A DNA stretch of 58,683 nt. Origin: Gammaproteobacteria bacterium. GTDB taxonomy: Bacteria > Pseudomonadota > Gammaproteobacteria > Steroidobacterales > PWYM01. Positions within the stretch are counted from its first letter, which is position 1. Each line of letters opens with the position of its first letter. The DNA lies in assembly GCA_007127715.1 (NCBI GenBank), contig SKYU01000015.1:1-58683 (forward strand), written 5' to 3'. Made by a program: the position numbers and the translations under genes. The notes beneath the pieces are model-generated. The model saw nothing but the letters and a program-made list of their open reading frames with translations, had not been told where the DNA came from and made no database searches. Positions 1,983 through 50,228 of the stretch are shown here, piece after piece.

Positions 1983-4364
1983 TTGAAGATCTCTCAATCC
2001 TGGCTGGCTGACTGGGTAGCACTGGCACAGAGCGGCGAGGCACTGGCCGAGCAGCTGACCATGGCCGGCCTGGAAGTCGACGCCGTCACGGCGCTGGCAC
2101 CGGAGTTCCGCGGTGTGGTGGTTGCGCGGGTTGCAGAGCTTTCGCCCCATCCGGACGCGGACAAGCTGCGCGTGGCCCAGGTGGATGTTGGTGACGGTGT
2201 GCTCCGCCAGGTCGTCTGCGGCGCACCGAATGCGCGGGCCGGCATGGTTTCGGCCCTTGCGACCGTTGGTGGCGTGCTGCCCGGGGGCATGAAAATCCGC
2301 AAGGCCAAGCTGCGCGGTGTGGTCTCCGAGGGCATGCTGTGTTCAGCGGCCGAGCTGGGTCTGGATGAAGACGCCTCGGGGATTCTCGAGCTGCCCGAGG
2401 ACGCTCCCGTCGGACGGGAGTTCGCCGACTGGCTCGGCCTCGACGATACCGTCATCGATGTCGATCTCACGCCGAACCGGGGCGACTGCTTCAGTGTAAG
2501 AGGGGTGGCACGCGAGCTTGCGGCCCTTAACGACACGCCGTTGACGGGCCCCCAGTGTGCCAGTGTGGCGGCCACACATGAGCAGACGCTGGGTGTCACG
2601 CTCGAAGCGCCAGAAGCCTGTGCACGCTTCGCTGGTCGGGTGATCCGAGGGATCGCCCCCTTCCGACGCTCGCCTACCTGGCTGGCCGAGCGCCTGCGTC
2701 GGGCGGGAATCCGTGCCATCCACCCGGTCGTGGATGTCACCAACTATGTCATGCTGGAACTCGGGCAGCCACTGCATGGCTACGACCTCGCCCGGCTGAC
2801 GGGCGGGATCACCGTGCGCCTCGCCGCTGCCGGAGAGCCGCTGGTGCTGCTCGATGGGCGCGAAGTGACGCTGGCACCGGACATGCTGGTCATTGCCGAT
2901 GACCGCGGCCCCGTCGGACTGGCCGGTATCATGGGCGGGGATTCGACTGCGGTGGGCGAGGCCACCACCGAGGTTTTCCTGGAAGCGGCCTGGTTTTCGC
3001 CGGAGGCCATTGCCGGGCGCGCGCGTCGACTCGGGCTGCACACCGATGCCTCGGTACGCTTCGAGCGGGGCGTCGATTTTGCGCTGCCTGCGCAGGCCAT
3101 CGAGCGGGCGACGGCACTGCTCATGGACATCTGCGGTGGCGAGCCTGGTCCGCTGCAGATTGCCGAGGTGCCGGCCCACCTGCCGAAGCGGCCCGCCGTC
3201 ACGTTGCGGGCGGCCAGGCTTCAGGCCCTGCTGGGCACGGAGATCGAAGCGCAGGTGGTCGAACGGATTTTCGCCCGCCTGGGCCTTGACGCCGTGGCTA
3301 CGCCGGAGGGGTGGTCGGTCACGCCTCCCTCGCAGCGCTACGACCTGCAGATCGAGGTCGATCTGATCGAGGAGGTGGCACGGATCTACGGCTACGATCG
3401 CATCCCCCGTCGCCCCGAGCAGGCAAGTACCGGGATCCGGCCGGCGACGGAATCACGCACCCCTGAGGAACGGGCCAGGCAGCTGCTGGTCGACCGCGGG
3501 TACCAGGAGGCGGTCACCTACAGCTTCATCGACGAAAAGGTTCAGGCGGCGTTTTTCCCGGACGCGGTTCCGATACGCCTGGCCAATCCGATCGCGGCGC
3601 AGATGAACGTCATGCGTCGTTCTCCCTGGCCGGGTCTGGCCGCCGCCGCGCGTGACAACCTCAGTCGTCAGCAGGCGCGCGTGCGGCTGTTCGAGCTCGG
3701 GACGCAGTTCGAACAGGATGCCGAAGGTGGGGTAGAAGAGCGACAGGTGATTGCCGGCCTTGCGCTGGGGCCGGTGTGGCCGCTGCAATGGGATGCCGCC
3801 GGACGGCGGACCGATTTCTACGACGTGAAGGGCGATCTGGAGGCGTTGCTGACGCTGGGTAACGGGGCCGAACGGTGGTCCTTCGAGCCGGGCGAGCAGA
3901 CGGCGCTGCATCCGGGCCAGTCGGCGGTGATTCTTCGCGATGGCGCTGCCGTCGGACATATCGGTGCGTTGCACCCCCGCCTCGCCGCCGAGCTCGAACT
4001 GCCCGTCGACACTTTCGTGTTCGTGGTCGAGGTGGCGGCGGCGCTGGGCGCGAGGGTGCCGGCTTACCACGGCGTATCGAGGTATCCTGCGGTACACCGG
4101 GATCTCGCCGTGGTCGTCGACGAGGCGCTGCCGGCTGAACGTCTCCTGGCTGTGGTCCGGGCCTCGGCAGGCCCCTGGCTGCAAAGTGTCGAAATCTTTG
4201 ACATCTATCGCGGCGACAGGATCCAGACAGGATGTAAAAGCATGGCTTTGAGCTTGATTTTGCAGGCACCATCGCGCACCCTAACTGACACTGACGTGGA
4301 GGGCGTCGTGGGGTCGGTCATCGACCGCCTCGGGTCCGAGCTGGGCGCCAGAATAAGAGACTAG
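1983..4364 (+). CDS. pheT: Phenylalanine--tRNA ligase beta subunit
   Basis: [44 protein letters not shown] motifs and C-terminal FDX-ACB domain; TTG start. Confidence 0.98.
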
Positions 4365-38959: not shown

Positions 38960-40015
38960 TCAAAGCCTGGCGAGCACCGCGTCGCCGAACGCGCGCGTCC
39001 CGACGCTCTCGCCGCCGCGGGCGAGGTCTGCCGTGCGCAGACCGGCATCGAGCACTGCCGAGACAGCCGCCTCGATCTCGCGGGCCGCAGGCTCGCAGTC
39101 CAGTGAATGGCGCATCAGCAGGGCCGCGCTCAGCAGCGTCGCGCAGGGGTTGGCAATGCCCTGGCCGGCGATATCCGGCGCCGATCCGTGAATCGGCTCG
39201 TACAGACCGCGTCCATCCTCGCCAAGCGAGGCCGAGGGCAGCAGCCCCATCGACCCAGCCAGCATGGAGGCCTCGTCGGTGAGGATGTCCCCGAACATGT
39301 TCTCGGTCACGATCACGTCGAAGCTCGCCGGCCGGCTCAGCAGGTGCATGGCCGCAGCATCGACCAGCATATGCTCCAGGGTCAGCTCCGGAAACTCTTC
39401 CGCGACCACGCGCGTGGTCACCTCGCGCCACAGGCGGGAGGTCTCGAGCACATTGGCCTTGTCTACCGAGACGAGCCTGCGCTGGCGCGTCTGTGCGAGC
39501 CGGCCCGCCATCCGGACGATGCGCTCGATTTCCTCGACGGCGTATCGGCATTCGTCGGTGGCTACGGATTCGCTGCGGGTCTTGCGGCCGAAGTAGATTC
39601 CGCCAGTAAGCTCCCTCACCACCATGATGTCCACGTCGGCAAGCAGTTCCGGGCGCAGCGGCGAGGCGGCCAGCAGCGCCGGGTGCGGCCTGACCGGGCG
39701 CAGGTTGGCATACACGCCGAGCGTCGCCCGAAGATCAAGCAGGCCCTGCTCCGGGCGCTGTGCCGCGCCGGGGTCCGACCACTTCGGACCGCCCACCGCG
39801 CCCAGCAGCACGGCCGCCGCCCGAGCGCACAGCTCGGCCGTCTCTGCCGGCAGCGGAGGGTGGCCGGCATCGATCGCGGCGCCGCCGATCAGGGCTTCCT
39901 CGAAGGTGAGCTCGAGCCCGTGGCGTTCGCCCACCACCTCGAGTACGCGTTGTGCCTCGCGGGTGACTTCCGGGCCGATCCCGTCACCGGGCAGGACGGC
40001 AATCAGGGCTGCCAT
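38960..40015 (-). CDS. leuB: 3-isopropylmalate dehydrogenase
   Basis: [65 protein letters not shown]. Confidence 0.97.
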
Positions 40016-40587
40016 GGACGATTCCGTTCGAAGTTGCGAATCTGCTCTTCCTGCTGCAGCAGGAACCCAAGCTGGTCGATGCCATTCATCAGGCAGTAGC
40101 GGGAGAAGCCGTCGATCGCGAACTCGACCTCATGGCCGTTCGGCAGACCGACGCGGCATTCACCGAGATCGATCGAGACTTCCGCCCCGGGGTTCGCCAG
40201 CAGCCAGGCGTGGGTGTCGCGGTCCACCACCACCGGCAGCAGCCCGTTTTTCAGAGAATTGCTGCGGAAGATATCGGCGATTTCGGTGCTGATCACCGCG
40301 CGGATGCCGTAATCGTAGAGCGCCCATGGCGCGTGTTCACGCGAGGAGCCGCAGCCGAAGTTGTTGCCGGCCACCAGTACGGCGCAGCCCTGTGCTTCGG
40401 GTTGGTTGAGTTCGAAGTCAGGGCGCGGCTGGCCTTTTTCGTCGTAGCGCCAGTCGGCGAACGCCGCGTCGCCCAGGCCTTCTCGGGTGGTGGTGGTCAG
40501 GTAACGCGCAGGAATGATCTGGTCGGTGTCGATATCGTCGTACGGCAGAACGACCGTGCGCGAGCGGATGACGCTGATGGGTTCCAT
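40003..40587 (-). CDS. leuD: 3-isopropylmalate dehydratase small subunit
   Basis: [32 protein letters not shown]; ATG at 40587. Confidence 0.96.
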
Positions 40588-40598
40588 GGCAGGCTCCG

Positions 40599-42005
40599 TC
40601 AGTTCGCGAGATAGGGGCGGGGATCGGCGACGCTGCCGGCAATCGCGCTGGCGGCGGCGGTGACCGGGCTGGCCAGCACCGTTCGGGCACCCTGGCCCTG
40701 ACGTCCCTCGAAGTTGCGGTTGCTGGTGCTGACGGCCAACTGCCCTGAGGGCACCGTGTCGCCGTTCATGCCGAGGCACATCGAGCAGCCGGACTCCCGC
40801 CACTCGGCACCCGCTTCTGTGAACACCCTGTCCAGTCCCCGGGCTTCCGCCGCTTTCTTGACCTGTTGCGAGCCCGGCACCACCAGCATGCGTACCCCCT
40901 CTGCCACCCGTCGGCCACGCAGCACCGAAGCCGCCTGCTCGAGGTCCGACAGCCGGGAATTCGTGCAGCTGCCGATGAACACGACATCCACCGGATGTCC
41001 GGCGAGCGGTCGCCCGGCGGTCACGCCCATGTAGTCGAGCGCCTTGCGGAAATTCGGATCGCTGCGCTCGGGGACGGCCTCGTCGATGGCGACCACCATG
41101 CCCGGGTTGGTGCCGAAGGTGACCATGGGGCGCAGGGCCGAGACGTCAACGGTCACCTCACGATCGAAGCGGGCACCCGGGTCGGAAGGCAGGGCGCGCC
41201 AGCGCGCGACGGCCTCGTCCCAGGCGGCCCCCTGCGGGACCATGGGTCGGCCGGCGAGATACTCGATCGTGGTGTCGTCGGGGGCGATCATGCCGGCACG
41301 CGCCCCGGCCTCGATCGACATGTTGCAGATGGTCATCCGCTGCTCCATGTCCAGGCCGGCGATGGCGCTGCCGCGATACTCGAGCACGTGGCCGACGCCG
41401 CCACCCACCCCGATCTGACCGATCAGCGCGAGGATCATGTCCTTGGCGGTGACCCCATCGCCGAGTTGACCCTCGAAATTGACCGCAAATGTCTTCGGTC
41501 GGCGCTGCAGCAGGCACTGGGTGGCCATGACGTGACCGACCTCGGTCGTGCCGATCCCGAACGCCAGTGCGCCGAACGCGCCGTGCGTCGAGGTATGGCT
41601 GTCTCCGCAGACAATGGTCTTGCCTGGCTGGGTGGCTCCGAGTTCCGGCCCGATGACGTGTACGATGCCGCGATGCTCGCTGTCGAAACCGTGCAGGGTC
41701 ACGTTGAACTCTGCGCAGTTCTTCTCGAACTGCACGATCTGGCTCGCGGCCTTGGGTTCGGCGACGACCTGGAGATCGCGAAAGCTTCGCACCGGCAGGG
41801 TGGGCGTGGAGTGGTCCATCGTCGCCAGCGTGAGGTCGGTACGTCGCAGCGGCAGGCCGCGCTCGCGCAGCACGGAAAACGCCTGTGGGCTGGTGACCTC
41901 GTGGGTGAGGTGCAGGTCGATGTACAGCACCGCCGGGTGATCGGCGGACTCCGGCACGACCACATGATCGTCCCACACTTTCTCGAACAGCGATTTGGCG
42001 CTCAT
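40599..42005 (-). CDS. leuC: 3-isopropylmalate dehydratase large subunit
   Basis: [61 protein letters not shown]. Confidence 0.97.
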
Positions 42006-42056
42006 GGCACTCCCGTCTTGTATGTCATCCGGACCGGGCGCTGACCCGGTCATGTG

Positions 42057-43001
42057 TCAGGCTGTCGTGGTGTCGTCGACCGGTTCGAGCCAGCCCCAGC
42101 GGTCGGGGGTCGAGCCGTCGAACAGCCCGAAGAACCGTGACTGCAGCATCTCGGTGATGGGTCCCCGGCGACCGGGGCCCACCTCCAGGCGATCGACCGA
42201 GCGCACGGGCGTGATCTCAGCCGCCGTGCCGGTCAGGAATATTTCGTCGGCGAGATAGAGCATCTCGCGGGGGATTTCCTTCTCCATGACCTCGAGTCCC
42301 GCTTCGCGCGCCAGCGTGATGATGGTGTCCCGGGTGATCCCCGTGAGGATGGAGTCGGTCGCCGTGGGGGTGTAGATGCGACCGTTCTTGACGACGAACA
42401 CGTTTTCACCGGCCCCCTCGCTGACCGTGCCACGCGTGGTCAGCGCGATGCCCTCGGCGAAGCCCAGCCGCCTCGCTTCCATGCTGATGAGTTGGCTGGA
42501 CAGGTAATTGCCTCCGGCCTTGGCCAGCGCCGGCACGGTGTTGGGGGCCACCCGCTGCCAGGAGGAAATGCAAACGTCCACGCCGTTCTCCATCCCCTCG
42601 GCTCCGAGGTAGGCGCCCCATTCCCATGCCGCGATCGCCGTGTCGACACGGTGGTCGGCCTTGGCCGCCAGACCGATCTCCCCGTAGCCCCGGAACGCGA
42701 TCGGGCGGATGTAGGCCCCGTTGTCGAGTGCGTTGTCGCGGATCACCTGCTTGCAGGCGGCGGCCAGCGTGGCGACATCGTAGGGAATGGCGAAACGGTA
42801 GATCCTGGCCGAATCGTGCAGGCGCTCGAGGTGCTCGGTCAGGCGGAAAATGCGGCTGCCCTGAGGGCTGCGATAGACCCGGATCCCCTCGAACACCGAA
42901 GAGCCGTAGTGCAGGGCGTGCGAGAGAACGTGGACATTGGCCTCCTCCCATGGGACGAGTTTGCCGTTGAACCAGATAAAGCGACTCGCTTGAATGGGCA
43001 T
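42057..43001 (-). CDS. ilvE: Branched-chain amino acid aminotransferase
   Basis: HALHYGSSVFEGIR, YIRP, AKAGGNY, EGAGEN, ILTGITR, LTGTAAEITP. Confidence 0.95.
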   Translation of the reverse strand: MPIQASRFIWFNGKLVPWEEANVHVLSHALHYGSSVFEGIRVYRSPQGSRIFRLTEHLERLHDSARIYRFAIPYDVATLAAACKQVIRDNALDNGAYIRPIAFRGYGEIGLAAKADHRVDTAIAAWEWGAYLGAEGMENGVDVCISSWQRVAPNTVPALAKAGGNYLSSQLISMEARRLGFAEGIALTTRGTVSEGAGENVFVVKNGRIYTPTATDSILTGITRDTIITLAREAGLEVMEKEIPREMLYLADEIFLTGTAAEITPVRSVDRLEVGPGRRGPITEMLQSRFFGLFDGSTPDRWGWLEPVDDTTTA

Positions 43002-43027: not shown

Positions 43028-44593
43028 TCAGGCACTCGCGGCCGCGGCGGGTGCAGCCGAGGGGCTGGTCAGTCGCCGCTGGATGCGGTTGATGACCTCC
43101 AGATAGGCGCGGGCGCCGGCCTCGACGATGTCCGTGGACAGGCCCTGCCCCCTGAAGGACTGGCCATTATATTCCACCGTCACGGTGACCTCACCCTGCG
43201 CGTCATTGCCCAGGGTCACGCTACGCAGTTCGAAGTTCTTCAGCACGAGCTCGATGCCGGTGGCGCGTTCCAGCGCGCGGAAAGCCGCCGCGACCGGTCC
43301 GTCCCCGACGGCTGCTTCCTGGACCTCCTCGCCCGTTTCGGCAACCATCCGGACGGCCGCCGCGGCGATCGTGCCGGTGCCTGCGGTGATATGCAGTTCC
43401 TCCATCCGCCAGTGCCCGGCCTGACCGGTTCCGGCATTCATGATGATGGCCTCGATGTCGGCATCGAACATCTCTTTCTTGCGATCGGCGAGCTTCTTGA
43501 ACTCGTCGAAACAGCGCTTGAGTTCGACATCGTCCAGCCGGAAGCCGAGCTGTTCCACGCGCTCGCGGAAGGCATGGCGCCCGCTGTGCTTGCCCAGCAC
43601 CAGGTTGGATCGGCTGATGCCCACGTCCTCGGGACGCATGATCTCGTAGGTGGCGTGGTGGCGGAGCATGCCGTGCTGGTGGATGCCGGCTTCATGGGCA
43701 AAGGCGTTCTCCCCGACGACCGCCTTGTTACGCGGGACATGCATGCCGGTGATCGACGAGACCAGGCGGCTGGTGGGGTAGAGGCGTCGTGAATCGATCC
43801 CGGTATGCAGGCCGAAATAGGCCTCCCGGGTCTTCAGTGCCATGACGATTTCCTCGAGAGAGCAGTTGCCGGCCCGCTCGCCGATACCGTTGATCGTGCA
43901 CTCCACCTGGCGCGCGCCGGCCTGTACCGCGGCGAGGCTGTTGGCGACCGCCATGCCGAGATCGTCGTGGCAGTGGACGGACAGCGTGACCTGGTCGATG
44001 CCGGGGACATGGGTCTTGAGATAGCGGAAGACCTCGTGGAATTCTCCAGGCACGGTGTAGCCCACCGTGTCCGGAATGTTGATCGTGCGGGCGCCGGCCT
44101 CGATGACCGCGGCCACGACCTCTGCCAGGTACTCCAGCTCCGTGCGCGAGGCGTCCTCGGGGGAGAATTCCACGTCCTCGCAGAAACTGCGCGCAAGCTT
44201 GACGCCCTCGACCGCACTTCTGAGGATTTCGTCCTTGGCCATCTGCAGTTTGTGCTCGCGGTGGATGGCGCTGGTGGCGACGAACACGTGGATGCGCTTG
44301 TGCTCGGCCTCGCGCAGCGCATTCCATGCGCGCTCTATGTCGGCCGGATTGCAGCGTGCCAGGCCCGCAATCACCGGGCCGCGGATGCTGCCGGCAATGG
44401 CCTGTACGGCTTCGAAGTCGCCGGGCGAGGCGGCCGGGAAGCCCGCCTCGATGATGTCCACACGCAGATCCGCCAGTGCCTGTGCGACGCGCAGTTTCTC
44501 GCGCAGCGTCATGCTGCAGCCCGGCGCCTGCTCGCCGTCTCGCAGGGTGGTGTCGAAGATCTTGACGCGGGTGTCATCTGCCGGTGTGGTCAT
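43028..44593 (-). CDS. leuA: 2-isopropylmalate synthase
   Basis: [55 protein letters not shown]-terminal regulatory domain (GDGPV, DIVEA). Confidence 0.96.
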
Positions 44594-44671: not shown

Positions 44672-45769
44672 TCAGCGGCTGCCGTAGTCGAGTGAGGGCA
44701 TCGGGTAGATGCCCATGGCGCGCGGGTGATGCTGCGGTGGCACCTCATCGAGTACGCCTCGCAGGGTGTCGATATCGATGTTGCCGCCGCTGAGCACGAC
44801 GCCGACGCGCTTGCCCGAGAGTCGGTCCGCCAGCTTGCAGGCCGCGGCGAGCGGGGCGGCGCCGCCGCCCTCGGCAAGCTGGTGCACCGATTCCAGATAC
44901 AGGCGGATGGCCGCGGCGATCTCGGTCTCGCTGACCGTGACGAACTCGTCGATGTGCTCGCGCAGCACGGACATCGTGTAGCCCACGGGAACACGGCTGG
45001 CGAGACCGTCGGCGATGGTCGGCGCCGCGGCGAATGCGCGGTCTTCGCCCGTGTGCCAGGCGTGATGGAAGGCCGGCGCGTTCTCGGCCTGAACGGCGAT
45101 GATCCGGGTGCCCGGGCTGAGGCGCCTGGCTGCAAGCGCCGTGCCGGCGGCGAGGCTGCCCCCGCCGACAGGGACGATGATGACATCGAAGGGCTGGGAG
45201 ACCTGTCGCAGCATCTCCAGGGCCACCGTGCCCTGGCCCGCGACCAGAGTCCGGTGGCGCGCCGGGTGAATGCAGGGCTGGCCGGTGCGCCTGGCGTGCC
45301 GAACCGCTGCGTCCCAGGCCGCATCGAAATCATGCCCCCGCTCGATCACCTCGGCACCCGTGGCGCGCATCGCCGCGTTCTTGCCCGGCGCGTTGCCGAC
45401 GGGCACGAAGATGGTGCAGCGGCTGGCGTACAGGGCGGCGGCCCGGGCCAGCGCCTGGCCGAAGTTGCCCCGGGTAGCCGTAACCAGACCGGTGGCGCGT
45501 TCCTCCGGGCGCAGTGAGGCGAGCAGGTTGAGCGTTCCCCGGATCTTGAAAGAGCCCACTGGCTGGGCGTTTTCCAGCTTGACCCAGAGGTCGCAGCCGG
45601 CCCGCTGGTTGAGCAGGGGATGACGGATGAGTGGCGTTGGCTGCAGCCACGCTGCAATCACTTCGGCAGCGGCTTCGATGTCGGCAAAGGATGCGGGGGG
45701 CTCCTGTCGGTCAGGCTCGGCACCCCAGTCTGTCGCGGCCAGCTCGGCCGGCAGGCGTTGATCGATCAT
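44672..45769 (-). CDS. Threonine dehydratase-like PLP enzyme without ACT domain; first gene of the leu operon
   Basis: VKLENAQPVGSFKIRG, atypical ATRGNFGQ, PVGGGSL, AEGGGAAP, SGGNID. Confidence 0.82.
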   Translation of the reverse strand: MIDQRLPAELAATDWGAEPDRQEPPASFADIEAAAEVIAAWLQPTPLIRHPLLNQRAGCDLWVKLENAQPVGSFKIRGTLNLLASLRPEERATGLVTATRGNFGQALARAAALYASRCTIFVPVGNAPGKNAAMRATGAEVIERGHDFDAAWDAAVRHARRTGQPCIHPARHRTLVAGQGTVALEMLRQVSQPFDVIIVPVGGGSLAAGTALAARRLSPGTRIIAVQAENAPAFHHAWHTGEDRAFAAAPTIADGLASRVPVGYTMSVLREHIDEFVTVSETEIAAAIRLYLESVHQLAEGGGAAPLAAACKLADRLSGKRVGVVLSGGNIDIDTLRGVLDEVPPQHHPRAMGIYPMPSLDYGSR

Positions 45770-45812: not shown

Positions 45813-45848
45813 AAAAAAAAACCCCGCATCGTCTGCCGGTGCGGGGTT
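45813..45848 (-). terminator. Attenuator intrinsic terminator
   Basis: Minus strand AACCCCGCACC-GGCAGAC-GATGCGGGG followed by 9 T. Confidence 0.85.
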
Positions 45849-45870
45849 GGTGTTCAGCGAAACGTGGCGT

Positions 45871-45984
45871 TCAGCCGGACAGCCCGCACCTCCAGCGTCC
45901 AAGAAGGAGAAGGCTGGCAAGCACGCCCGGCCCGGACAGCGACACTGTCGGGCGGCGAAACAGCTGGCGTGCGGCAACGTTCAT
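45871..45984 (-). CDS. leuL: Leucine attenuator leader peptide, 37 aa: MNVAARQLFRRPTVSLSGPGVLASLLLLGRWRCGLSG
   Basis: Four consecutive Leu codons CTT CTC CTT CTT; followed by antiterminator and terminator segments and the leu operon; below the size cut-off of the ORF track. Confidence 0.85.
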   Translation of the reverse strand: MNVAARQLFRRPTVSLSGPGVLASLLLLGRWRCGLSG

Positions 45985-45990
45985 GGCCTG

Positions 45991-46019
45991 ATCATCTTGT
46001 ATACAACGGGCGCTGTCAA
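45991..46019 (-). promoter_or_regulatory. sigma70 promoter of the leu leader
   Basis: Minus strand TTGACA-17bp-GATGAT; predicted +1 falls on the leader ATG. Confidence 0.68.
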
Positions 46020-46054
46020 CTCCTGCGCATCGGCCCGCGCATTGACAGGTGCGA

Positions 46055-46771
46055 TCACACCATGGTGGCCAGACCGTCTTCGCCCAGATGAGGGGTCAGG
46101 TTGAAGCCTGCCAGCGTCCTGCGGCGGCCGGAGAACCGGATCTCGACCATCGCGCAATTGCCGAACACCAGGCTCAGGTCGAAGATGCGCTGGTCATCCA
46201 GGCCAAGCAGTTCACCGACGATCATGCAGATCAGCCCTCCCGAGGAGAAGGCGATGCGCGTGTCGCCACTGCGCCCGGGCGCGGTCATCAGCGCCAGGGC
46301 ATCGGCGGCCCGCCGGCGCGCCGCCGGCCAGGGCTCGTGGGGCAGGTCGGGGAACTCTCCGCCGATCCACCGGCGCGAGACCTGTTCCCAGCGCCGGAAA
46401 TAGTCGCGGATCAGCTGCCGGCGTTCCGCCGGATCGTCCGACGGCGTCAGCGTCAGCCCGCCGTTACCGGACGCCTCGGCCAGGCCCAGTACGGTCTTCA
46501 TCACGGCAGCAGCCTCGTGCTCGGCCAGCGCGTCGACGGGATGGCTGGACGGCCAGGCATCGCGCAGGTGTCGATAGGCGCTGGCCACGGCGTCTGCGGT
46601 TTCCCGATGGCGTCGAAGCGGGCCTACATAGCTTGTATCGATCTGCACGCCCGTGCGGGCAAGATGCTCACCGAGCCGGCGCGCCTGGACGACACCCTGG
46701 GCCGACAGCCGGTCATAGTCCTGCCCGAAAAAGGACGCCTGCCCGTGCCTGACCAGCAGCAGCCGGCTCAC
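46055..46771 (-). CDS. Histidine phosphatase (phosphoglycerate mutase-like) family protein
   Basis: LVRHGQAS, LSAQGVVQA, GPLRRHRETA; FSSGG in place of the usual SHGG. Confidence 0.85.
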   Translation of the reverse strand: MSRLLLVRHGQASFFGQDYDRLSAQGVVQARRLGEHLARTGVQIDTSYVGPLRRHRETADAVASAYRHLRDAWPSSHPVDALAEHEAAAVMKTVLGLAEASGNGGLTLTPSDDPAERRQLIRDYFRRWEQVSRRWIGGEFPDLPHEPWPAARRRAADALALMTAPGRSGDTRIAFSSGGLICMIVGELLGLDDQRIFDLSLVFGNCAMVEIRFSGRRRTLAGFNLTPHLGEDGLATMV

Positions 46772-49916: not shown

Positions 49917-50228
49917 TCGCGTGGCTGAACTTGTATACAGACGTCAGGCTGTGCAGGTACGTGTTTATACACTTGCAATGACGCAGTTCAGGCAGGAGGG
50001 CGGTCCGGCTCGGGAGGTGGGACACGACCTTCGGGATCGGCCGGCGGGATTGACTTGGTGCCGCTGAGCCGTTGTAGTAGGGGGATGCTGACCGGACAAT
50101 GTCGTCAGCACAGGCGAGGGGCAGGGAAGCCGGGATCGTCCGGAATGGGGTTCCCCATATCCTCGATTTTTCGTTTTACAGCCATCCATTCCAGAATCCG
50201 ACATCAATGACCGGACCGAGGAGAGTCA

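What the first reader, a model, noticed from the sequence alone, without database searches (positions are those of the whole stretch)
45813..46019. Complete leucine attenuator whose leader peptide appears to be translated from a leaderless mRNA
Seen (minus strand): TTGACA-17-GATGAT, then exactly 6 nt (CAGGCC), then ATG, so +1 is predicted on the A of the start codon, with no SD. The 37-aa leader has LLLL encoded CTT CTC CTT CTT, whereas surrounding genes favour CTG. Segment 1 (CAGCCTTCTCC) can pair with segment 2 (GGAGG-TGC-GGGCTG). Segment 2 GGTGCGGG (45883-45890) can pair with terminator arm CCCGCACC (45838-45845). The 3:4 terminator has 9 T, and the stop codon follows segment 2 closely. Known: this is the classical leuL logic, but proteobacterial leaders typically have an SD, and leaderless sensing uORFs are better known from Actinobacteria. 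Inferred: a leaderless attenuator in a proteobacterium.
Basis: partly seen in the sequence, partly recalled or inferred. Interest (0 to 1): 0.64.

Follow-up and report, generated by a model that had tools for sequence, protein, structure and literature searches.

The report
Leucine attenuator with leaderless leader ORF
This is a textbook-style leucine-sensing RNA switch in front of a leucine-synthesis operon. Its sensor mini-gene almost certainly starts at the very first base of the transcript, a layout kept in many related bacteria but already known from a few other groups.

Summary

**What it is.** The element is a classical ribosome-mediated Leu attenuator. It has a 37-codon leader ORF, rare CUU control codons, 1:2, 2:3 and 3:4 hairpins, and a T9 terminator. 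It controls a thr-dehydratase-like/leuA/ilvE/leuC/leuD/leuB operon.

**The leaderless reading.** No usable transcript-start data exist. Comparative evidence supports it strongly:
- In 30 of 69 related Leu leaders, from five families of the same gammaproteobacterial order, the leader ATG lies 6-8 nt after the -10 hexamer of a TTGACA-17-NANNAT promoter. The sequence in between has diverged freely.
- The only other attenuator I found in this genome (Trp, WWW) has the same layout.
- So do 22 of 27 trpE-anchored loci across nine families.
- Genome-wide, only a few percent of genes show this geometry, so it is specific to these leaders.

**Novelty.** The idea is not new for Proteobacteria. Sinorhizobium meliloti trpL starts at its ATG, and leaderless leader peptides are known in Deinococcus, Corynebacterium and Mycobacterium.

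**Verdict.** This is a real, unannotated new member of a known kind. The attenuator is near certain. Leaderless initiation is about 70% likely and needs 5' end mapping.

The parts
46014..46019 (-). -35 hexamer TTGACA
   Evidence: Identical in 28 of 30 leaderless-layout relatives.
45996..46007 (-). Near-palindrome GTTGTATACAAG in the promoter spacer, overlapping the first base of the -10. Possible operator.
   Evidence: Perfect GTTGTATACAAC in the genus relatives L041-L044, L049 and L071. Absent from L045. Function not tested.
45991..45996 (-). -10 hexamer GATGAT (A at position 2, T at position 6)
   Evidence: Relatives have CATGAT, CAGTAT, CACTAT, GAATAT or GAACAT at the same 17-nt spacing.
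45985..45990 (-). 6-nt discriminator CAGGCC. Too short to hold a Shine-Dalgarno sequence.
   Evidence: It is 6-8 nt long and free in sequence in 30 relatives.
45871..45984 (-). Leader ORF: 37 codons plus TGA. The A of the ATG (45984) is the predicted transcript start.
   Evidence: - Sequence and translation.
- Reading frame from this ATG kept in all relatives although the N-terminal sequence diverges.
- Not in NCBIfam or the protein collection.
45930..45953 (-). Hairpin inside the N-terminal half of the leader ORF. Possible RNA polymerase pause hairpin (inferred).
   Evidence: RNAfold. Hairpin potential at the same place in most relatives despite different sequence.
45901..45912 (-). Leu control codons CTT CTC CTT CTT (codons 25-28)
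   Evidence: CTT is a rare codon here.
45906..45916 (-). Segment 1 (CAGCCTTCTCC). It pairs with segment 2.
   Evidence: RNAfold of nt 60-111 gives -19.6 kcal/mol.
45880..45893 (-). Segment 2 (GGAGGTGCGGGCTG). Its core GGTGCGGG (45890-45883) encodes the conserved R-C-G of the peptide.
   Evidence: 85% of cells pair in register against 36-55% when the partner is slid.
45851..45881 (-). Middle hairpin spanning the stop codon. It is nested inside the 2:3 antiterminator helix.
   Evidence: Some compensatory pairs among six close relatives.
45838..45846 (-). Segment 3, the 5' arm of the terminator (CCCCGCACC). It pairs either with segment 2 or with segment 4.
   Evidence: Its A covaries with both partners.
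45813..45828 (-). Segment 4 (TGCGGGG, 45828-45822) and the T9 tract (45821-45813)
   Evidence: 98% of cells paired in 68 relatives, with 7 double changes.
44672..45769 (-). First structural gene: short threonine dehydratase-like PLP enzyme
   Evidence: NF004771, 324.8 bits, above the cut-off of 317.
43028..44593 (-). leuA, 2-isopropylmalate synthase
   Evidence: NF002086, 778.8 bits.
42057..43001 (-). ilvE, branched-chain amino acid transaminase
   Evidence: NF005146, 436 bits.
40599..42053 (-). leuC
   Evidence: NF004016, 706 bits.
40003..40587 (-). leuD
   Evidence: NF002458, 239 bits. Start read.
38960..40015 (-). leuB
   Evidence: TIGR00169, 472.6 bits.

Best explanation
This is a ribosome-mediated (leader-peptide) transcription attenuator that sets read-through into a thr-dehydratase-like/leuA/ilvE/leuCDB operon according to charged tRNA-Leu.

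**Start of the transcript.** RNA polymerase starts at the TTGACA-17-GATGAT promoter. The first transcribed base is, or lies within 1-2 nt of, the A of the leader ATG (45984). The 37-codon leader ORF is therefore translated as a leaderless mRNA, without a Shine-Dalgarno sequence.

**When Leu-tRNA is scarce.** The ribosome stalls on the rare CUU/CUC run and covers segment 1. Segment 2 (GGUGCGGG) is then free to pair with segment 3 (CCCGCACC). This 2:3 antiterminator prevents the terminator from forming, and the operon is transcribed.

**When Leu-tRNA is plentiful.** The ribosome reaches the UGA, which lies 9 nt after segment 2, and masks segment 2. Segments 3 and 4 form the terminator, and transcription ends in the T9 tract.

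**If the leader is not translated at all.** Pairing 1:2 sequesters segment 2 and termination is the default.

**Shown:** the sequence anatomy, the competing helices, and their conservation and covariation.
**Inferred:** the transcript start, leaderless translation, and the Leu response.
For: **Anatomy.**
- All parts are at the stated coordinates.
- The antiterminator forms at -26.5 kcal/mol once segment 3 has emerged. The terminator alone is -19. Forced 2:3 gives -29.1 against -32.3 for forced 3:4, so the choice is kinetic.
- The downstream genes are Leu/BCAA enzymes.

**Conservation.**
- Model R1, which covers only the Leu codons to the terminator, matches 236 of 301 genomes of the order.
- A 2:3 duplex is predicted in all 69 relatives examined, with compensatory variants: GGAGCGGG/CCCGCTCC, GGCCGGGG/CCCCGCGCC and GGATGCG/CGCATCC.
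- The A of segment 3 covaries with both of its partners.

**Rare control codons.** CTT is 4.8% of Leu codons genome-wide.

**Leaderless layout.**
- This is the only promoter-like site in 700 nt.
- In 30 Leu leaders of families f1, f3, f10, f11 and f15 the ATG lies 6 nt (8 cases), 7 nt (15) or 8 nt (7) after the -10. The discriminator and the N-terminal codons are otherwise diverged.
- The base before the ATG is a pyrimidine in 20 of 30.
- Nt 4-15 are 49% GC against 64% further in (p=2e-4), and they are unpaired in MFE folds.
- The start codon is always ATG.
- The same genome's Trp attenuator (contig C154) reads TTGACG-17-AATACT-CCGGCC-ATG.
- In a sample anchored on the trpE protein, independent of any leader similarity, 22 of 27 loci from nine families have the W-rich leader ATG 6-10 nt after TTGAC(G/C)-17/18-NATACT.
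- Genome-wide, a -10 at 5-8 nt precedes only about 3.3% of first ATGs, against about 1.7% background. The layout is therefore specific to these leaders.

**Precedents.** Leaderless leader ORFs are documented in S. meliloti trpL (PMC7298713, PMC6614838), D. deserti (PMC4007540) and C. glutamicum ilvBNC (PMC11857589).
Against: - There is no direct 5' end evidence. Only thin assembled contigs were available.
- Those contigs include DNA upstream of the predicted +1: X17 at 45829-46066, X26 at 45864-46020 (library type not on record) and X25 at 45985-46137.
- They could reflect read-through from the co-oriented upstream gene, which ends at 46055 with no terminator before the promoter. They could also be DNA carry-over.
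- The -10 GATGAT matches the consensus in only 4 of 6 positions.
- In family f8 the homologous Leu leader starts 22-42 nt after an equally good promoter. The leaderless layout is therefore not obligatory for this attenuator family.
- With 7-10 nt spacings, the real start could lie 1-3 nt upstream of the AUG.
Confidence: 0.7

Rival explanations
1. The attenuator is the same, but the leader ORF is read from a leadered mRNA. Transcription would start further upstream, either at an unrecognised promoter or as read-through from the histidine-phosphatase-family gene. The SD-less internal AUG would be found by an SD-independent route.
For: - RNA-library contigs span the promoter region at about the same depth as the genes.
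- The upstream gene is co-oriented, ends 35 nt before the -35, and has no terminator.
- Family f8 relatives do use an SD-less AUG 22-42 nt downstream of the promoter.
Against: - It does not explain why a perfect TTGACA-17-NANNAT sits at a fixed 6-8 nt from the ATG in five families, and at 6-10 nt in Trp leaders of nine families, while the surrounding sequence drifts.
- The contigs have a depth of only about 4. Their strand is unknown and they may be DNA.
- Read-through transcripts could coexist with a leaderless primary transcript.
Confidence: 0.17
2. The promoter is as predicted, but translation starts at an internal in-frame GTG (codon 14 or 21). The transcript would then have a 39-60 nt untranslated leader.
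For: In-frame GTG codons exist at codons 14 and 21.
Against: - No purine-rich SD precedes either GTG.
- These GTGs are not conserved in relatives, whereas the ATG at 6-8 nt is.
- Both lie in or next to a predicted hairpin.
Confidence: 0.05
3. The ORF is not translated. The element would be a constitutive terminator or sRNA, or a protein- or tRNA-controlled terminator, with the Leu codons incidental.
For: No match to Rfam Leu_leader. The ORF is not called in any public annotation.
Against: - An open frame of 19-49 codons with a Leu (or Leu/Ile/Val) run directly 5' of segment 2 is kept in about 70 loci, although the N-terminal sequences are unrelated.
- The stop codon is always placed just after segment 2.
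- The control codons are rare ones.
- The sister element before trpE carries WW or WWW instead.
Confidence: 0.03

Closest known systems
Escherichia coli / Salmonella leu operon attenuator (leuL leader peptide; Rfam Leu_leader RF00512)
   Same: - Short leader ORF with four consecutive, mostly rare Leu codons.
- 1:2, 2:3 and 3:4 alternative hairpins.
- Intrinsic terminator before leuA.
- Stop codon placed so that a terminating ribosome blocks the antiterminator.
   Different: - No sequence or structure match to RF00512, even at E <= 10.
- Longer peptide (37 aa, against 28 aa from my own knowledge).
- Control codons are CUU/CUC, not CUA.
- No Shine-Dalgarno sequence and apparently no 5' UTR.
- The operon also carries a threonine-dehydratase-like gene and ilvE.
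Sinorhizobium meliloti trpL / rnTrpL attenuator of trpE(G)
   Same: - Proteobacterial ribosome-dependent attenuator.
- The transcript's 5' end is the ATG of the leader ORF, that is, a leaderless leader mRNA (PMC7298713, PMC6614838).
- The Trp attenuator of this genome and order has the same predicted layout.
   Different: - Alphaproteobacterium, Trp rather than Leu, 14-aa peptide.
- Its 5' end was mapped experimentally, whereas here it is predicted.
- Trans-acting sRNA and peptide roles are known there and were not examined here.
Leaderless leader peptides of Deinococcus deserti, Corynebacterium glutamicum (ilvBNC) and mycobacteria
   Same: The transcript start coincides with the AUG of a short amino-acid-rich leader ORF upstream of biosynthesis or tRNA-synthetase genes (PMC4007540, 14 cases; PMC11857589).
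   Different: In those organisms leaderless mRNAs are a large share of the transcriptome: 47-60% in D. deserti (PMC4007540). Here the geometry precedes only a few percent of genes, so it is a specific property of the attenuators.

Membership tests
Classical ribosome-mediated (leader-peptide) transcription attenuator | Short ORF with clustered codons for the regulating amino acid | tested here: met
   37 codons, LLLL at codons 25-28 plus 4 more Leu. Conserved in relatives.
Classical ribosome-mediated (leader-peptide) transcription attenuator | Intrinsic terminator between the leader ORF and the first structural gene | tested here: met
   7-9 bp GC stem plus T9, -19 kcal/mol. 98% of cells paired in 68 relatives.
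Classical ribosome-mediated (leader-peptide) transcription attenuator | Antiterminator helix that shares a strand with the terminator | tested here: met
   - GGUGCGGG pairs with CCCGCACC, 8 bp.
- Kept in 69 loci.
- 85% of cells paired in register, against 36-55% when the partner is slid.
- The shared A covaries with both partners.
Classical ribosome-mediated (leader-peptide) transcription attenuator | Control codons lie in a segment (1) that pairs with the 5' strand of the antiterminator (2). The stop codon is close enough for a terminating ribosome to mask segment 2. | tested here: met
   The 1:2 fold is -19.6 kcal/mol. The UGA lies 9 nt after GGUGCGGG. Ribosome footprint sizes are from general knowledge.
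Classical ribosome-mediated (leader-peptide) transcription attenuator | Read-through responds to charged tRNA-Leu | not testable with these tools
   Needs Term-seq or reporter assays with and without Leu limitation.
Rfam Leu_leader (RF00512) | Covariance-model score at or above the gathering threshold | tested here: not met
   No hit to RF00512 at E <= 10. The only hits were sub-threshold chance matches, for example Trp_leader at 18.6 bits against a threshold of 41.
Leaderless mRNA | Primary 5' end at, or within a few nt of, the start codon | tested here: inconclusive
   Only thin assembled contigs were available. Some cover DNA upstream of the predicted +1, and their strand and RNA or DNA origin are unknown.
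Leaderless mRNA | -10 promoter element about 6-8 nt upstream of the start codon, with no room for an SD | tested here: met
   - Window: 6 nt.
- 30 Leu leaders: 6-8 nt.
- 22 of 27 Trp leaders: 6-10 nt.
Leaderless mRNA | AUG start codon and an unstructured 5' end | tested here: met
   ATG in all 30. Nt 4-15 are AU-enriched (49% against 64% GC, p=2e-4). The first 5-9 nt are unpaired in MFE folds.

The most novel reading that the evidence does not exclude
In this gammaproteobacterial order, starting the transcript on the AUG may be the selected rule for attenuator leader ORFs, even though ordinary genes are overwhelmingly leadered.

- Trp leaders show the layout in at least nine families and Leu leaders in five.
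- A 5'-terminal AUG would tie ribosome loading to transcripts born at the attenuator's own promoter.
- Read-through transcripts from upstream genes would carry an internal, SD-less AUG. They would stay untranslated and be terminated by default.
- The attenuator would then also act as an insulator.
Probability: 0.3. Interest if true: 0.6.

Novelty: new member of a known kind. Interest (0 to 1): 0.42.

Why it matters
- **Annotation.** It adds an unannotated, widely conserved Leu-leader family (236 of 301 genomes of one order) that current RNA and protein family libraries miss. This matters for annotating and engineering branched-chain amino acid pathways.
- **Textbook picture.** If the transcript start is confirmed, leaderless leader peptides in Proteobacteria are not a rhizobial oddity. 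They would be the normal design for Trp attenuators, and often for Leu attenuators, in a whole gammaproteobacterial order whose other genes are mostly leadered.
- **A natural comparison.** The leaderless Leu leaders of families f1, f3, f10, f11 and f15 can be set against the leadered ones of family f8. This allows a direct test of what 5'-terminal AUG loading contributes to transcription-translation coupling in attenuation.

Tried and rejected
1. **Direct transcript-start evidence.**
   - Four run searches and four read-laying runs gave only Logan contigs.
   - Those for the window are thin (depth about 4-7) and have no strand.
   - Those for relatives L107 and L110 have flat, DNA-like depth.
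   - No conclusion about the start was possible.
2. **Library matches.** Nothing at or near threshold in Rfam. No NCBIfam hit, and the leader peptides are absent from the protein collection.
3. **Other attenuators in the same genome.** Two scans found only Leu and Trp.
   - A Thr/Ile-rich candidate on C144 is an alternative frame of the 3' end of a porin gene.
   - An FFRFF candidate on C101 is antisense to a small membrane-protein gene.
4. **Is the genome generally leaderless?** No. There is only a small bump of -10 elements at 5-8 nt before first ATGs.
5. **Insulation idea.**
   - Upstream gene orientation in the leaderless-layout loci is mixed or unreadable from the 115-290 nt of upstream sequence available.
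   - Co-oriented read-through is therefore not a general correlate.
6. **Spacer palindrome as a regulon operator.**
   - GTTGTATACAAC with up to 2 mismatches occurs 16 times against about 20 expected.
   - The TGTATACA core occurs 9 times against 5.7 expected.
   - This is too few to call.
7. **Model-based alignment for the 2:3 helix.** It mis-registers segment 2 in divergent rows. I therefore relied on per-sequence duplex prediction in addition.
8. **Taxon names.** The names of the order and its families could not be recovered. Public titles of the nearest relatives say only 'Gammaproteobacteria bacterium' MAGs.

Full report
**Observation**

- **Promoter and start:** TTGACA (46019-46014), a 17-nt spacer, GATGAT (45996-45991), CAGGCC, then ATG at 45984.
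- **Leader ORF:** 37 codons, MNVAARQLFRRPTVSLSGPGVLASLLLLGRWRCGLSG, with stop at 45873-45871.
- **Leu run:** CTT CTC CTT CTT at 45912-45901.
- **Pairing segments:** GGTGCGGG (45890-45883) is the exact complement of CCCGCACC (45845-45838).
- **Terminator:** CCCCGCA/TGCGGGG followed by nine T (45821-45813).

The features are more than chance would give.
- The promoter-like site is the only one in 700 nt, where shuffles give 0.1.
- The codon claim holds. Across 1,863 coding ORFs of the genome, Leu is CTG 63.9%, CTC 27.6% and CTT 4.8%. CTT is 2.3% in the operon genes.

**Context**

The element heads a minus-strand operon:
- a short threonine-dehydratase-like gene (45769-44672)
- leuA (44593-43028)
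- ilvE (43001-42057)
- leuC (42053-40599)
- leuD (40587-40003)
- leuB (40015-38960)

The co-oriented upstream gene belongs to the histidine-phosphatase family. It ends at 46055, only 35 nt before the -35, with no terminator in between.

**Attenuator logic**

Folding gives the following picture.
- Segment 1 holds the Leu codons and pairs with segment 2 at -19.6 kcal/mol.
- If a ribosome holds segment 1, the RNA from nt 91 to segment 3 folds into the 2:3 antiterminator at -26.5 kcal/mol. A hairpin over the stop codon is nested inside that helix.
- If a ribosome sits on the stop codon, only the terminator can form (-19 kcal/mol).
- Forced 2:3 gives -29.1 against -32.3 for forced 3:4. The two are close, so the choice is kinetic, as in classical attenuators.
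- The UGA lies 9 nt after GGUGCGGG. A terminating ribosome would therefore mask segment 2. This last step rests on general knowledge of ribosome footprints.

**Relatives**

- A protein-anchored search with the dehydratase found five loci with a homologous leader.
- I built a covariance model from the Leu codons to the terminator only, deliberately leaving out the promoter and the ATG. It matches 236 of 301 genomes of the same order.
- I examined 69 distinct loci.
- All 69 have a short open frame with a Leu run, or a Leu/Ile/Val run, just 5' of a segment that can pair with the terminator's 5' arm.
- Compensatory variants of that pairing occur: GGAGCGGG/CCCGCTCC, GGCCGGGG/CCCCGCGCC and GGATGCG/CGCATCC.
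- On a model-fitted alignment of 68 sequences:

| Helix | Cells paired | Paired when partner slid | Double changes |
|---|---|---|---|
| Terminator (3:4) | 98.3% | 30-60% | 7 |
| Antiterminator (2:3) | 85.1% | 36-55% | 4 |

- The A of segment 3 covaries with both of its alternative partners. This is the signature of a switch.
- The conserved R-C-G near the peptide's C-terminus is simply the coding image of GGUGCGGG.

**The leaderless question, comparative evidence**

- In 30 of the 69 Leu leaders the first in-frame ATG lies 6 nt (8 cases), 7 nt (15) or 8 nt (7) after the -10 of a TTGAC(A/T)-17/18-NANNAT promoter. They come from families f1 (the window's genus), f3, f10, f11 and f15.
- The -35 is almost invariant, and the -10 always keeps A2 and T6.
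- The 6-8 nt in between, and the first 20 or so codons, differ freely between families. The distance is therefore being conserved, not the sequence.
- The base before the ATG is a pyrimidine in 20 of 30.
- The start codon is always ATG.
- Nt 4-15 are AU-enriched (49% against 64% GC, p=2e-4) and unpaired in predicted folds.
- An in-frame ATG inside CATGAT in some relatives falls out of frame in the window, so it is not the conserved start.

**A second, independent test**

- A genome-wide search for strong promoters with an ATG 5-9 nt downstream turned up the genome's Trp attenuator on contig C154.
- It reads TTGACG-17-AATACT-CCGGCC-ATGATGAAG. The peptide is MMKPSAVDLRRPSARWWWPLPAERVIS. A T9 terminator follows, then trpE with a normal GAGGAG SD, then trpG.
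- I then sampled the order by TrpE protein similarity, which is blind to the leader.
- In 22 of 27 loci with enough flank, from families f1, f8, f10, f11, f13, f15, f16, f18 and f20, a WW/WWW leader ORF starts 6-10 nt after TTGAC(G/C)-17/18-NATACT.
- Two scans found no other attenuator in this 90%-complete genome. Two further candidates proved spurious. So both of the two attenuators have the layout.

**This is not a generally leaderless genome**

- A -10 element at 5-8 nt precedes about 3.3% of first ATGs of coding ORFs. The background is about 1.7%.
- Plausible leaderless genes do exist. Examples are ispH, whose ATG at the leaderless distance gives an N-terminus (MKILLANPRGFCAGVDRAI) that, from my own knowledge of IspH sequences, looks native, a TetR-type regulator, and several toxin-antitoxin genes.

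**Direct evidence**

None was obtainable. The runs holding this organism are served only as assembled contigs.

| Run | Contig on window | Depth |
|---|---|---|
| X17 (RNA) | 45829-46066 and 46041-46314 | about 4 |
| X26 (type unknown) | 45864-46020 | 3.5 |
| X25 (metatranscriptome) | 45985-46137 | 7 |

- Sequence upstream of the predicted +1 therefore occurs in RNA libraries. This could be read-through from the upstream gene or DNA carry-over. It does not exclude a primary start at 45984.
- The X25 contig ends exactly one base before the predicted +1. I cannot explain this.
- Runs found with relatives look like DNA.

**Exceptions**

- In family f8 the homologous Leu leader starts 22-42 nt after an equally good promoter. 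It is always preceded by (C/T)TGACTGAG and has no SD.
- The Trp leaders of f8 nevertheless have the leaderless layout.
- Families f9, f12, f13, f18, f20 and f24 gave no clear promoter call for the Leu leader.

**What is known**

- Classical leu attenuation is textbook.
- Comparative surveys have predicted leader-peptide attenuators in proteobacteria (Vitreschak et al. 2004, cited in PMC1262725). Their taxon coverage is from my own memory.
- Leaderless leader ORFs are documented in three settings.
  - In S. meliloti the 5' end of rnTrpL is the ATG of trpL (PMC7298713, PMC6614838).
  - In D. deserti 14 leader peptides sit on transcripts that begin with AUG (PMC4007540).
  - The C. glutamicum ilvBNC leader is discussed as leaderless (PMC11857589).
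- My searches found no report of a leaderless Leu or Trp leader in Gammaproteobacteria. The library is incomplete, so this is weak evidence.
- The element matches no Rfam family. Its peptide matches no NCBIfam model and is in no public protein set.

**Verdict**

- The attenuator is real and works like leuL, but it is not a member of Rfam Leu_leader.
- The leaderless reading is the best-supported one, at about 0.7, on purely comparative grounds.
- It is a new member of a known kind.
- The broader pattern is the more interesting lead: leaderless Trp and Leu leaders across an order whose other genes are mostly leadered. It is cheap to test by 5' end mapping in any cultured member.

Noticed in passing
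Same genome, contig C154, minus strand, ATG at 3291 (locus L134: 1692-1609, minus strand): An unannotated Trp attenuator. It reads TTGACG-17-AATACT-CCGGCC-ATG, with leader MMKPSAVDLRRPSARWWWPLPAERVIS and a T9 terminator, followed by trpE and trpG. The same leaderless layout occurs in 22 of 27 trpE loci across nine families of the order.
   Followed up: yes
window 45996-46007 (also 49932-49939): The near-palindrome GTTGTATACAA(G/C) fills the 3' half of the promoter spacer in all genus relatives, and GTTGCAAC sits at the same place in some family f3 loci (L095, L103, L106). The TGTATACA core occurs 9 times in the genome against 5.7 expected, always in intergenic-looking DNA. It may be an operator for an unknown regulator, adding promoter-level control.
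   Followed up: partly
L046, L048, L050, L051, L053, L056, L057, L062, L063 (family f8), just 5' of the leader ATG: Homologous Leu leaders with a shorter peptide (about 23 aa) start 22-42 nt after the -10. They are always preceded by (C/T)TGACTGAG and have no Shine-Dalgarno sequence. How this ORF is initiated is unclear. The motif places UGA stops in both other frames just before the AUG.
   Followed up: partly
window 45985-46137: Metatranscriptome run X25 holds a single 153-nt contig (depth 7) that ends exactly one base upstream of the predicted transcript start. It holds nothing of the leader itself. Strand and origin are unknown.
   Followed up: no
window 44672-45769 and 42057-43001: The Leu-attenuated operon begins with a short (365 aa) threonine-dehydratase-like gene and has ilvE between leuA and leuC. 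In more distant relatives (Woeseiaceae-labelled MAGs) the dehydratase instead follows ilvC or ilvN, and the leader upstream carries mixed Leu/Ile/Val runs.
   Followed up: partly
Same genome: C195 minus 8040 (ispH), C62 minus 39138 (TetR-type), C1 plus 853 and 1620, C12 plus 439 and minus 3746 (toxin-antitoxin-like): These genes have an ATG 6-9 nt after a good TTGACx-16/17-TAnnnT promoter, and their N-termini look native. They are likely true leaderless mRNAs in a genome where such genes are a small minority.
   Followed up: partly
30 leaderless-layout Leu leaders, including window 45985-45990: The 6-8 nt discriminators between the -10 and the ATG are mostly GC-rich (CAGGCC, CGGGCGA, GCGCCGC). 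From general knowledge, GC-rich discriminators mark promoters inhibited by ppGpp/DksA, which would be unexpected for an amino-acid biosynthesis operon.
   Followed up: no
Same genome, aragorn output: A 94-nt tRNA-Leu with anticodon AAG was predicted beside the usual GAG, CAG, TAG, TAA and CAA species. It is unusual for bacteria and possibly a false call. It would bear on how the CUU control codons are read.
   Followed up: no
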